Source of the DNA: a virus
Lineage: Duplodnaviria; Heunggongvirae; Uroviricota; Caudoviricetes
Reading direction: 5' to 3' (one strand)
DNA: 14,764 nucleotides
IMG/VR virus record: IMGVR_UViG_2609459864_000006
Positions 6,001 through 9,000 of the stretch are shown one piece after another; the first letter of the stretch is position 1; every line of letters starts with the position of its first letter. Position numbers: made by a program.

Positions 6001-9000
6001 ACAGGGTTCGCAGTACCGGCGCATACGGAAACCGGCGAGCCTTTCGGCTCCCCTGCCCAGCCCACCATAATTCTGGCGTGCGTGAGCGCGGACGATAAAA
6101 AAGACGCTGGCGCGTCATATATCGCCGTATGCAATTCCGGGCTGCGACCCCCGGCACCCGCTTTATAAGGTGCAGAGACAGTGTAACGTCCCGAAATTGC
6201 AGAATCAATATTTGGTCTTGAAATGATCATATAGCTGCTGATATCTTTAGAACTGTTCTTGGATGTTTCGGAGCCGTTTTATGCGAAACAGCTCCCCGTT
6301 ATTGATGTTGAGTGAGCCGGGTTACTCCCGGCTTTTTTTCACCGCTGCCAACCAATAACCTGAAATAACCCCATTTTCGGGTGATACCAGCGAGTCCCTC
6401 GCGGTTCTGCTTCCTCCATAACCCGATAAAAAGCAGCCATAAACGGTTCCACAGCAACAATTGCGCGACGTGACAACAATCCGTCCGGCGTCATGAACTC
6501 ATGTGTGTCTGTAGGAATTTGATAGGCGTTCACCAGATTGCGGCATTTATCATCTGACAAACCGGTTTTTGCTTTCAGTTGGCGATATCCGGCATAGCCC
6601 TCACGAATAGTGCCCTTTTTAATTTGCTCGACTGTTTCAGCAACGTGGCTGACTTTTTCTTCCACCTGAGTGATCCGTTTCTGTTGGCGAACGGCTTCAA
6701 GAGCCATCGCGGCAACCATTTCGATTTCGCTCATTGGCTTACGGATCTGTTCTTCCAGTTCGCGCCAGCGATCTACCAGGCGAGCTGTGAATTCAGGACA
6801 GAGCTGTGCGACGACAATGATGCTGTCGCGCTTACCTTGTTCACCTTCGAATACATACGCGCTAGAAAATCGGCGAGGCCCAAGTGATTGTTTATTCTCA
6901 ATTTCCACAGTCTGTGGAAATTGGATGATTCCCTTTTTAGCCAGTGTTTCAATAGTTCTCTTAACACTATCTGGTCGGCTTCCCACCAGCTCTGCGATCT
7001 CAACGCTGGTCATGGATGCTTTGCCGTTAAAAATTGCGGTGTTCATTGTTGGTCTCCTGTGGGCTTGTCATCTTCTGTATTCGCTAGACTTGGGTTTGTA
7101 TATGGAATGCTCGGATCCAGATGACAAAGAATGGCAACATCCTCCGGAACACCTCGCGTTTTCCACTTTCCAACACCTTGACTGCCACGAGGCCTTCCTT
7201 TCTTTGGGAACCTGCGACCAATAGCGGCATTGGTTTTAAATTGAATTTTTAATATTTCATAAAGGGTCATTCTTTAGTCTCACACCAGATACTTTGTTAT
7301 CCAACGATGTTAACCACAGGAATCCAAAGTATCAAGAAATTCTGTTACTTTAGTATCAACAACCATGAGAGGAGAAGAAAAATGAAGTCTTTAGGTGAAC
7401 GTCTCATCAACGCACGGCAAAAAGCTGGGTTAACACAAGATGCGTTGGCTAAAAAAGCTGGGATCACCAGAGTTGCAATCAGTAAAGCCGAGCAAGGCCT
7501 TACAAAAAGTTTCAACGGTGACACCCTTTTTAAAGTTGCAGCTGCACTGCGGTGTTCACCGCAGTGGCTTCAGAACGGAGATGAAAAAGATAAGCATTGG
7601 GAAAATAATGTTAAGAGCTGCCCACAGAGAGACACAGCACACTCTTACCCTGTAATTAACTGGGTTCAGGCAGGATTATTCGCAACTTCTGGTGATGACT
7701 ACAACATGTATGATCAGGATAATTGGAGGCATTCTGTAAAATACGCTGGTGAGAGGGGGTTCTGGCTGGAAGTGCACGGAGACTCAATGACTTCGCCCGT
7801 AGGAATAACATTTCCTGAAGGAATGTCGATCCTTGTCAACCCAGATAAAGAAGTTTTTTCAGGGTGTTACGTCATCGCCAGAAAAAAATCCACCAATGAA
7901 GCAACATTCAAAAAATATATTTCTGACATGGGAAAGGCGTTTCTAAAGCCCCTTAATCCACAATATCCAATCATAGAAATGGACAATGATTGCGAAATAG
8001 TAGGTGTTGTGGTTGATGCCAGGTGGGATATTTTCTGACCAGACACAAAACACAAAAAGAAACCAAAGTATCAAAAATCACTTGCCACACCTTGATACCT
8101 TAGTTACCATAAAACAAAGTTCGTAACTGAGGTATCATCTCATGATCAATAAAGCTACAACTCTTGACTGTCTCGAAGAACTGAAAAACCTCGGCAGCCT
8201 CATTACACTAATAGCAAAAGCAACACCTGATGCTACGCTCTCTAGCGATATAGAGTCATGCGCAGGACTGGCATGGGATATGACAAATAGCATATCCAGA
8301 AAGCTATCGTCAGCAATGCTTTTACAGAATAAAAATTCTGCAATCAACAACCGTCTTCGCACCCAACGCGAAGCCTGCGGCTTAACAACCGCCGAACTCG
8401 CCAGGCTGCTCGATCTCGATGAAGAAATTATCATCCAGTGGGAGAGCGGAGAGTATGAACCAACTATCAGTATGCTTATCCCACTGGCAAATATTCTTGG
8501 CTGCGATCCGATGTGGCTGTTAACTGGTAAACCAACAGGTGGGGATACTTGCGCATGAAAAACTGTGATGCTTACCATATTTGTCTCATTGGTGAATTGC
8601 TTGATTTCATACAAAAAAGCACTGCGCGCAATAATAAAAATATAACATATGGTGATCTGGTAATAATTTCAGAGGATATAAAGAGCATCGCTCTTAAATT
8701 CAAGAGCGACGCGAGTATTGATGACGCTATTTACGCTTATCTTGCGAAAATAATTGACGGATCCAAAATCCAGCCTCTGGATGAACCTCGTCAGTGAAAA
8801 ACTCCTTTGATGAAGATGAGAACTGCTTCATAAACTTTACTTTATCTTCAGGTGAAACTACCTGACGAATTAATGCGGAGATAGCAACTTTGTGCCAAAT
8901 TAATTCTTTTTTGAGTTCTGAAATCTCTTTTTCGAGTTGCTCTGCGTTAATCATTTATCCTCCATTGAGAGCTGAATTGAAAATGGGGACCAACACGCGG

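What the first reader, a model, noticed from the sequence alone, without database searches (positions are those of the whole stretch)
6300..6345. Strong plus-strand terminator inside a minus-strand operon, suggesting an antisense transcript across Q and the 187-aa gene
The hairpin AGCCGGG-ttact-CCCGGCT followed by T7 is oriented to terminate plus-strand RNA, yet all genes from 5266 to 7046 are on the minus strand. It would terminate an antisense RNA initiated within or downstream of Q, analogous to the paQ antisense transcript that lowers Q expression in lambda. Alternatively it only insulates the Rha/immunity region from porin-direction transcription.
Basis: partly seen in the sequence, partly recalled or inferred. 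Interest (0 to 1): 0.4.

Follow-up and report, generated by a model that had tools for sequence, protein, structure and literature searches.

The report
OOP-like antisense small RNA gene
The plus-strand terminator is real, but it most likely ends a short (about 85 nt) antisense RNA with its own promoter, placed like phage lambda's OOP RNA, and not a long transcript running back across the Q gene.

Summary
A canonical intrinsic terminator lies on the + strand: stem 6314-6334, T-run 6333-6339. The T-run abuts the stop codon of the minus-strand Rha/Roi-like gene.

The paQ-like reading is not supported.
- The Q gene sits next to this region only because this defective prophage lost its replication genes (junction about 5755-5761). 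In intact relatives the replication genes lie between this spacer and Q.
- No CII-type promoter box occurs in Q.

What is conserved is a 127-bp spacer between the Rha-like gene and the next gene. It holds a complete plus-strand transcription unit:
- an extended -10 promoter, TTGAAA-18-TGaTATCTT (6218-6247);
- a conserved 5' block, GTTCTTGGAT;
- a variable hairpin;
- the terminator.

Three diverged alleles keep the promoter and terminator. phiP27 has a non-homologous sequence with the same architecture at the same place. Position, orientation, promoter overlap with the next gene and size all mirror lambda tO-oop-pO, which the same scan tool picks out in lambda. There is no sequence homology to oop, and the RNA does not overlap the upstream coding region.

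No expression data were found, so the RNA is predicted, not shown. Confidence is about 0.5. This is a new member of a known kind, of moderate to low interest.

The parts
6314..6339 (+). Intrinsic (Rho-independent) terminator: stem GAGCCGGG / CCCGGCTT, loop TTACT, T-run 6333-6339
   Evidence: Conserved in alleles A, B and C, and replaced by a different hairpin plus a T-rich tail in phiP27.
6218..6247 (+). Candidate sigma-70 promoter with extended -10: TTGAAA (6218-6223), 18-nt spacer, TG (6239-6240), TATCTT (6242-6247). It overlaps the start (ATG 6228-6230, minus strand) of the next gene.
   Evidence: It is the only match to TTG-N18-TGnTAnnnT in the whole window (expected 0.56). The elements are kept in alleles B and C although 8 of 18 spacer bases differ. 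The same motif occurs once in phiP27, 35 nt upstream of its terminator.
6254..6339 (+). Predicted antisense small RNA, about 84-88 nt (start inferred at 6252-6255, end in the T-run)
   Evidence: Inferred from the promoter and terminator. Fold -28.8 kcal/mol, z = -3.49. No transcript data.
6255..6264 (+). Conserved 5' block GTTCTTGGAT at or near the predicted 5' end
   Evidence: Identical in 33 of 35 distinct spacer sequences across three otherwise diverged alleles.
6270..6295 (+). Internal hairpin 1 (GGAGCCGTTT / AAACAGCTCC with one C-A mismatch on +). Alleles B and C carry different hairpins at the same place.
   Evidence: Between alleles B and C, CTTC/GAAG is exchanged for CTGC/GCAG, a compensatory change. 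The wobble evidence for which strand uses the hairpin is mixed.
6339..7046 (-). Upstream gene of the rightward early operon: 235-aa Rha/Roi/Ant-like DNA-binding protein, sitting where lambda has cII. Its stop codon touches the T-run.
6180..6208 (-). Divergent minus-strand promoter for isrK: TTGATT (6208-6203), 17 nt, TACACT (6185-6180). It lies back-to-back with the plus-strand promoter.
   Evidence: Read from the sequence. isrK model position 1 is at 6173. PisrK was shown experimentally in Gifsy-1 (PMC4825925). Homology with SfV, ST64B and others ends at about 6211.
5985..6173 (-). isrK (6097-6173) and C4 antisense RNA (5985-6072): a P1 immI / Gifsy-1 IsrK-type module downstream of the spacer, inside the 187-aa ORF
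   Evidence: Rfam gathering-level hits of 58.8 and 83.3 bits.
5667..6230 (-). 187-aa ORF, a deletion fusion of an 'ash family' N-terminal part with the last residues of a DUF968/YdfU protein. It is the gene immediately downstream of the spacer.

Best explanation
The hairpin is the terminator of a small, self-contained plus-strand transcription unit in the 127-bp spacer between the Rha/Roi-like gene and the next gene of the rightward early operon.

An extended -10 promoter (TTGAAA-18-TGaTATCTT, 6218-6247) overlaps the start of the downstream gene and fires against the operon. The RNA starts at about 6254, carries a conserved 5' block (GUUCUUGGAU), an internal hairpin and an AU-rich linker, and ends in the U-run at 6333-6339. 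Its predicted length is about 85 nt.

This is the layout of lambda tO-oop-pO: an antisense RNA made just downstream of the gene that follows cro and directed toward cI.

Inferred mode of action:
- It pairs with the pR read-through transcript between the Rha-like gene and the downstream genes (the ash/isrK-C4 module, and replication genes in intact phages), and/or interferes with it by convergent transcription. Either would lower or uncouple downstream expression.
- A trans-acting, Hfq-dependent role is possible, because the RNA has a U7 tail and an AU-rich stretch before the terminator.

Shown: the terminator, its strand-specific conservation, the conserved promoter motif, and the positional equivalence to OOP. 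Inferred: that the promoter fires, the exact RNA ends, and any regulatory effect.
For: 1. Terminator. It is a canonical hairpin plus T7 on + only. It is slightly more stable on + than on - in every allele (-15.3 vs -13.4, and -15.8 vs -15.1). The two stem polymorphisms found (L086 GCTGGG, L182 GGTCGG) keep a U.G pair on + but give a C-A mismatch on -.

2. Promoter.
- The strict motif occurs exactly once in the 14.8-kb window on either strand, 67 nt upstream of the hairpin (expected 0.56 per window).
- It is kept in alleles B and C (TTGAAA-18-TGgTATTTT) although 8 of 18 spacer bases and most of the sequence downstream to the hairpin differ.
- In phiP27 the flanking sequence is unrelated. The same motif (TTGATT-18-TGaTATTGT) still occurs once in 11 kb, 35 nt upstream of a different plus-strand hairpin with a TTTCTTATTT tail.
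- In 145.6 kb of non-redundant phage sequence, every case of this motif lying within 120 nt upstream of a strong terminator is one of these spacers. The chance expectation is 0.17.

3. The variable cassette coincides with the unit. Relatives without the spacer lose homology from about 6212 to about 6345, which is the span from the -35 to the T-run.

4. Structure. The + RNA folds with z = -3.49 in the window and z = -3.28 in phiP27. In alleles B and C the + RNA is 6-11 kcal/mol more stable than its complement. Hairpin 1 is replaced by different hairpins, including a compensatory exchange.

5. Lambda control. The same scan finds pO as TTGAGT-17-(TG)CATAAT overlapping the O start, and tO 54 nt downstream, antisense to cII-O. 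Lambda OOP is 77 nt (PMC3349717).
Against: - No transcript evidence. No paper in the searchable library describes this spacer. The two Sp11 Hfq peaks of the Sakai Hfq-CRAC list that I checked (EcOnc24, EcOnc04) map elsewhere, and I did not establish whether Sakai carries the spacer.
- Promoter-like hexamer matches in general are at chance frequency in the window (24 found, 23.4 expected). The strict motif was defined after seeing the window, so only phiP27 is an independent test.
- The -35 overlaps codons 3-5 of the downstream ORF, which could explain its conservation.
- Within each allele there is little diversity, so purifying selection is weakly tested.
- In allele A, hairpin 1 pairs better on the minus strand (G.U there, C-A on +), and two polymorphisms keep that pattern.
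- Many related phages lack the spacer entirely, so it is dispensable.
- Unlike OOP, the RNA would not overlap the upstream coding region.
Confidence: 0.5

Rival explanations
1. Backstop or orphan terminator. The hairpin has no dedicated promoter. It stops stray plus-strand (antisense) transcription from the downstream early genes, or from inserted DNA, before it runs antisense through the Rha-like gene and cro into cI. Alternatively it is a relic of an older gene arrangement.
For: The terminator is the best-conserved part of the spacer. Generic promoter-like matches are at chance level. Phages tolerate loss of the whole spacer.
Against: It does not explain why a TTG-N18-TGnTAnnnT motif sits 35-67 nt upstream in four alleles, one of them with unrelated sequence. 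It also does not explain why the variable cassette runs exactly from the -35 to the T-run. No other plus-strand promoter-like site lies between 5500 and 6218. The porin gene has its own terminator (5215-5232).
Confidence: 0.25
2. Sense-strand RNA element. The hairpins act in the minus-strand pR transcript, between the Rha-like gene and the next gene, as a processing, stability or translational-coupling signal. The plus-strand terminator look is incidental.
For: The minus-strand spacer RNA also folds well (-32.2 kcal/mol, z = -3.55). In allele A, hairpin 1 has G.U pairs on the minus strand where the plus strand has C-A, and two polymorphisms preserve this.
Against: The A6-A8 run after the stop codon, and the T-rich tail in the unrelated phiP27 version, have no obvious sense-strand role but are exactly what a plus-strand terminator needs. 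The terminator-stem polymorphisms, and one in allele B hairpin 1, favour the plus strand. In alleles B and C the plus RNA is far more stable than the complement. This model does not explain the promoter motif.
Confidence: 0.1
3. One reading: a long paQ-like antisense RNA starts within or downstream of Q, runs about 0.9 kb across Q and the 187-aa gene, ends at this hairpin and lowers Q expression.
For: Two plus-strand promoter-like sites lie inside Q (5400-5429, 10 of 12 matches; 5468-5496), and no plus-strand terminator lies between them and 6314. In this particular defective prophage such transcripts, if made, would stop here.
Against: The Q-terminator linkage is a deletion artefact and is not found in any of 5426 complete E. 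coli genomes as one block. In intact relatives the replication genes intervene. There is no CII box in Q. Promoter-like hits occur at chance frequency. The terminator is conserved with the Rha gene's 3' end, not with Q.
Confidence: 0.05

Closest known systems
Phage lambda OOP RNA (tO-oop-pO)
   Same: Both are short antisense RNAs (77 nt in lambda, about 85 nt predicted here) in the rightward early operon. Both are made just downstream of the gene that follows cro and are directed toward cI. In both, an extended -10 sigma-70 promoter overlaps the start of the next gene and a strong intrinsic terminator ends the RNA. The same scan tool picks out both (PMC3349717).
   Different: No sequence homology. 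The upstream gene is a 235-aa Rha/Roi/Ant-like protein, not CII. The RNA stops at the stop codon instead of covering the last 55 nt of the coding region. The downstream neighbour is an isrK/C4 module or an Ant gene, not O. Expression is untested.
Phage P22 sar RNA (immI region)
   Same: A 68/69-nt antisense RNA in an antirepressor control region, with its promoter inside the downstream gene, ending in an intergenic terminator (established knowledge; review PMC12197685).
   Different: sar covers the ant ribosome-binding site. The RNA here lies downstream of the Ant/Roi-like gene and upstream of the next gene's start, without covering its ribosome-binding site.
Phage lambda paQ / aQ RNA
   Same: It is antisense to the rightward operon.
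   Different: aQ is about 220 nt, starts inside Q and depends on CII (PMC12197685). Here Q is adjacent only through a deletion, no CII box is present, and the supported promoter lies 67 nt from the terminator.
Short prophage-encoded Hfq sRNAs of EHEC (AgvB, AsxR; Tree et al. 2014)
   Same: These are small autonomous promoter-plus-terminator units at fixed positions in lambdoid prophages, transcribed against the flanking operon (PMC4104026).
   Different: Those lie 3' of morons downstream of PR' and share a 42-nt 3' region. This element lies in the early region. The two Sakai Sp11 peaks that I checked against the genome map to other sites.

Membership tests
Intrinsic (Rho-independent) terminator | G+C-rich stem, short loop, immediately followed by a U-run on the transcribed strand | tested here: met
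   8 pairs (6 G-C), 5-nt loop, T7 on +; the minus-strand tail CACTCAAC is not U-rich.
Lambda OOP-type antisense RNA | Lies just downstream of the gene after cro in the pR operon and is transcribed antisense toward cI | tested here: met
   The order is cI(+) | cro-like(-) > Rha-like(-) > spacer, in the window and in relatives. Lambda layout.
Lambda OOP-type antisense RNA | Own sigma-70 promoter overlapping the start of the next gene | tested here: inconclusive
   The motif is present and conserved in four alleles, and lambda pO is found by the same tool. Promoter activity was not measured.
Lambda OOP-type antisense RNA | The RNA overlaps the 3' coding end of the upstream gene (55 nt of cII), giving an RNase III substrate | tested here: not met
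   The T-run ends at 6339, which is the last base of the stop codon, so there is no overlap with the coding region.
Lambda OOP-type antisense RNA | Sequence homology to lambda oop | tested here: not met
   The alignment shows only generic terminator similarity. Rfam has no OOP family, since the lambda oop region itself gives no hit.
Lambda OOP-type antisense RNA | The upstream gene is a CII homologue | tested here: not met
   Pfam gives only weak, below-cutoff matches to Phage_pRha and a Crp-type HTH. The gene is homologous to Ant of phage D6 and is annotated Roi in PhiR49_2.
Lambda OOP-type antisense RNA | A short RNA is detected in vivo | not testable with these tools
   No RNA-seq data are accessible, and no paper was found.
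Lambda paQ / aQ antisense RNA | CII-dependent promoter (TTGC-N6-TTGC) inside Q | tested here: not met
   No exact match in the window. One-mismatch hits are at chance level (28 found, 21 expected), with none on + in 5266-5664.
Lambda paQ / aQ antisense RNA | Conserved linkage of the antisense unit to Q | tested here: not met
   Q is more than 5 kb away in phiP27, and replication genes intervene in Stx2_95. No E. coli genome holds the window's Q-to-Rha block.
Any Rfam 15 family | Score at or above the family's gathering threshold | tested here: not met
   The best hits on 6279-6339(+) are sroD at 24.5 bits (threshold 50) and SorX at 14.3 bits. Both rest on terminator similarity only.

The most novel reading that the evidence does not exclude
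The roughly 85-nt RNA is made constitutively from the prophage. It acts in trans, as an Hfq-dependent sRNA or anti-sRNA using the conserved 5' GUUCUUGGAU block, or as an immunity RNA against superinfecting relatives. That would make the spacer a tiny regulatory moron carried by Stx-converting and other lambdoid prophages in about 4% of E. coli genomes.
Probability: 0.12. Interest if true: 0.55.

Novelty: new member of a known kind. Interest (0 to 1): 0.35.

Why it matters
If the RNA exists, this group of lambdoid prophages has an OOP-like antisense control point without a CII gene. The group includes phiP27 and several Stx1- and Stx2-converting phages, and the spacer occurs in 211 of 5426 complete E. 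coli genomes. The control point sits between an antirepressor-like gene and the isrK/C4 and replication genes. It would therefore be a handle on early-gene timing, and possibly on induction of toxin-carrying prophages. It would also be one more unannotated phage small RNA. If the RNA does not exist, the hairpin is just an insulating terminator and of little interest.

Tried and rejected
- Rfam, gathering and permissive thresholds: nothing for the spacer beyond terminator-only similarity. A lambda control shows that Rfam has no OOP family.
- paQ analogy: the CII-box search was negative, and Q adjacency was traced to a deletion.
- Hairpin as a general feature of Ant/Roi-like genes: rejected. Homologues in Klebsiella and Providencia phages, phi467, CharmingMan and D6 abut the next gene with no hairpin.
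- Repeated or mobile element: rejected. There is a median of one copy per genome.
- EHEC Sakai Hfq-CRAC sRNA list: the two Sp11 peaks I checked, EcOnc24 (Sp11; its homologue EcOnc22 in Sp15 gives a band of about 85 nt) and EcOnc04, lie in a tail-gene spacer and upstream of the nanS-p-like gene. Whether Sakai carries this spacer was not established.
- Local trans targets of the 5' block or the linker on the neighbouring minus-strand transcripts: no better than shuffled queries (one search timed out).
- Shared operator-like repeats between the cI-cro region and the spacer: none convincing.
- Strand assignment from G.U versus C-A asymmetry: mixed for hairpin 1. It favours + for the terminator, but on only two polymorphisms.
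- Small ORF on the + RNA (ATG 6263): it runs through the terminator without a stop, so it was rejected by reading the sequence.
- Search for further spacer alleles via the conserved Rha 3' end in IMG/VR: only alleles A-D were found.
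Full report
**1. The observation**

The + strand at 6314-6334 reads GAGCCGGG-TTACT-CCCGGCTT. Seven T follow CCCGGC (6333-6339), then C. The consensus scan lists it as the second-best terminator-like site in the window, with 8 pairs of which 6 are G-C. The T-run ends on the last base of the TGA stop codon (6339-6341) of a minus-strand 235-aa ORF (6339-7046). On the minus strand the hairpin is preceded by A7 and followed by CACTCAAC, so it has terminator form on the + strand only. The genes around it are indeed on the minus strand:
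- Q antiterminator, 5266-5664 (Pfam Phage_antitermQ, E = 4e-53);
- a 187-aa ORF, 5667-6230;
- the 235-aa Rha/Roi-like gene;
- a 75-aa cro-position ORF, 7043-7270.

An S24-type repressor gene lies on + at 7307-8038.

**2. The surroundings**

The minus strand is the rightward early (pR-type) operon of a lambdoid prophage: cI | cro-like > Rha-like > spacer (6231-6338) > next gene.

Intact relatives show the same order, followed by replication genes and only then Q. These relatives include phiP27, Stx2_95-type Stx2a phages, ASU11, PhiR49_2 and many E. coli prophages. The replication genes are an O-like gene, a helicase loader and DnaB.

In the window, homology to those phages stops at about 5755, and homology to a Q region (PhiR29_1) takes over at 5200-5761. 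The 187-aa ORF is therefore a fusion. Residues 16-106 match Pfam Phage_ASH, and residues 159-184 match the last 26 positions of DUF968. This prophage has lost its replication and nin genes. No complete E. coli genome carries the Q-to-Rha block as one piece. The closeness of Q to the hairpin is thus an accident of this defective copy.

Inside the 187-aa ORF, on the minus strand, Rfam finds two RNAs at gathering level: isrK (6097-6173, 58.8 bits) and C4 antisense RNA (5985-6072, 83.3 bits). This is the P1 immI / Gifsy-1 IsrK-type module. In Gifsy-1 the isrK promoter, the 77-nt IsrK RNA and the processed downstream RNA (STnc1160) are experimentally established (PMC4825925). In the window a matching minus-strand promoter, TTGATT (6208-6203)-17-TACACT (6185-6180), sits 7 nt upstream of model position 1. 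Homology with SfV, ST64B, mEp460, cdtI and others begins just there, at about 6211.

**3. What is conserved around the hairpin**

The 130-bp segment 6212-6341 occurs in 211 of 5426 complete E. coli genomes. It is nearly always a single copy, and always lies between a 'Rha family transcriptional regulator' and an 'ash family protein'.

From IMG/VR and E. coli genomes I collected 92 loci with 35 distinct spacer sequences. They fall into three alleles:
- Allele A is the window's type.
- Alleles B and C differ from A in most of the stretch between 6248 and 6300.
- All three alleles keep TTGAAA; an 18-nt spacer (8 of 18 bases changed) ending in TG; TAT(C/T)TT; the block GTTCTTGGAT; GTTGAG(T/C); and the hairpin with T6-T8.

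The internal hairpin 1 (6270-6295 in A) is replaced by different hairpins in B and C at the same place. Between B and C there is a compensatory exchange, CTTC/GAAG for CTGC/GCAG.

phiP27 and 15 further viral contigs carry a fourth version, allele D. In D the sequence upstream of the Rha stop codon is unrelated and the next gene is a different Ant gene. Even so, the + strand has TTGATT-18-TGaTATTGT (L001 5258-5287), then, 35 nt further on, the hairpin GGCCGGT-TTTCTCT-GCCGGCC with the tail TTTCTTATTT.

Relatives without a spacer (Stx1_14040, Stx2_14040, SfV, ST64B and several IMG/VR contigs) have the Rha-like gene abutting a longer ORF. They lose homology from about 6212 to about 6345, which is exactly the span from the -35 to the T-run. 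More distant Ant/Roi homologues in Klebsiella, Providencia and P1-like D6 phages have no hairpin.

**4. Is the promoter more than chance?**

Generic promoter-like matches are at chance level in the window (24 found, 23.4 expected), so a hexamer match alone proves nothing. The stricter pattern, TTG-N18 (ending TGn)-TAnnnT, gives more:
- It occurs once in the window on either strand, at 6218-6247(+) (expected 0.56).
- It occurs once in the 11-kb phiP27 locus, at 5258-5287(+) (expected 0.49).
Six of them are these spacers.
- Every case where the motif lies within 120 nt upstream of a strong terminator is one of the four alleles. The chance expectation is 0.17.

The motif was defined after looking at the window, so phiP27 is the only independent test. 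Its chance probability is roughly 0.004.

**5. Which strand?**

- The terminator is slightly more stable on + in all alleles.
- The whole 79-86-nt RNA is about equally stable on both strands in allele A (-28.0 vs -28.5 kcal/mol). It is 6-11 kcal/mol more stable on + in alleles B and C.
- The two polymorphisms found in terminator stems (L086, L182) give U.G on + and C-A on -.
- For hairpin 1 the evidence is mixed. Allele A has a C-A mismatch on + that is G.U on -, and two polymorphisms keep that pattern. One allele B polymorphism goes the other way.
- The T-rich tail on + in two unrelated versions is the strongest strand-specific signal.

**6. Comparison with lambda**

On the lambda cro-cII-O region the same scan tool finds pO as TTGAGT-17-CATAAT with a TG before the -10, overlapping the O start codon. 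It finds tO 54 nt downstream. Both are antisense to the operon. OOP is 77 nt, and its 3' end covers the last 55 nt of cII (PMC3349717).

The window's unit has the same position, orientation, promoter type, promoter overlap with the next gene, and size. It differs in four ways:
- no sequence homology;
- the upstream gene is not CII;
- no overlap with the upstream coding region;
- a different downstream neighbour.

Rfam has no OOP model, so the lack of an Rfam hit says nothing either way.

**7. Most likely mechanism**

An RNA of about 85 nt starts at about 6254 and ends at 6333-6339. During infection or induction it would pair with the pR read-through transcript in the Rha-ash spacer, and its promoter would fire into the oncoming polymerases. 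Either effect would reduce or uncouple expression of what lies downstream (the ash/isrK-C4 module, and replication genes in intact phages).

The U7 tail and the AU-rich stretch before the terminator also fit an Hfq-binding sRNA. The conserved 5' block could then be a seed, but no local target scored better than shuffled controls. All of this is inference. I found no transcript data, and the two Sp11 peaks of the Sakai Hfq-CRAC list that I checked against the genome are at other sites.

**8. Rivals**

- A backstop terminator without its own promoter (0.25) fits the terminator but not the conserved motif or the cassette boundaries.
- A sense-strand RNA element (0.10) fits allele A hairpin 1 but not the T-run or the promoter.
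No CII box is present.

**9. Verdict**

The feature is real. The best reading is a predicted OOP-like antisense small RNA gene, which makes it a new member of a known kind. Interest is 0.35, and it is worth one Northern blot or a look at existing strand-specific RNA-seq.

Noticed in passing
window 5985-6173 (-), inside ORF 5667-6230: Rfam gathering-level isrK and C4 antisense RNA genes lie inside the ORF that annotation pipelines call 'ash family protein'. The ORF stays open in 42 diverged copies. Over the RNA part, however, substitutions show no third-codon-position excess (isrK 9/11/4; C4 11/10/12), compared with 44/30/53 downstream. That part may be constrained as RNA rather than as protein.
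   Followed up: partly
window about 5755-5761: Deletion junction. The 187-aa ORF fuses an ash-type N-terminal part to the last residues of a DUF968/YdfU protein. The prophage lacks O/P-type replication genes and the nin region, so it is defective. One IMG/VR locus shows an ORF of the same 187-aa length.
   Followed up: partly
window 2543-2908: STnc100 sRNA (2656-2846, minus, 139 bits) has a convergent plus-strand terminator at 2628-2647, upstream of a nanS-p-like esterase gene (580-2433). In E. coli Sakai the Hfq-CRAC peak EcOnc04 lies just upstream of the 616-aa, same-position gene ECs_2189, so this may be the same Hfq-bound RNA.
   Followed up: partly
window 2926-3168 (-): Three tRNA genes lie between the porin gene and the STnc100/esterase region, as is typical downstream of Q and PR' in Stx-type prophages.
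   Followed up: no
window 3934-5076 (+), terminator 5215-5232 (+): A general porin gene (Porin_1, E = 3.7e-153) is inserted convergent to Q and has its own strong terminator. From memory, this resembles nmpC in the K-12 prophage DLP12.
   Followed up: no
window 6899-6923: A perfect 12+12 palindrome, CAATTTCCACAG-C-CTGTGGAAATTG, lies inside the Rha-like gene. It could be a protein-binding site or a hairpin.
   Followed up: no
window 6180-6247: The minus-strand isrK promoter and the plus-strand candidate promoter lie back-to-back. Their -35 hexamers are 9 bp apart and the inferred starts are about 81 bp apart, so the two could be co-regulated or compete.
   Followed up: no
window 6249-6265 vs lambda oop (L138 about 735-755, minus strand): A short resemblance: AGAACTGTTCTTGGATGTTT in the window against AGAACTCCATCTGGATTTGT in lambda (13 of 20). 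It is probably coincidence, because in the window the AGAACT part lies upstream of the inferred start.
   Followed up: no
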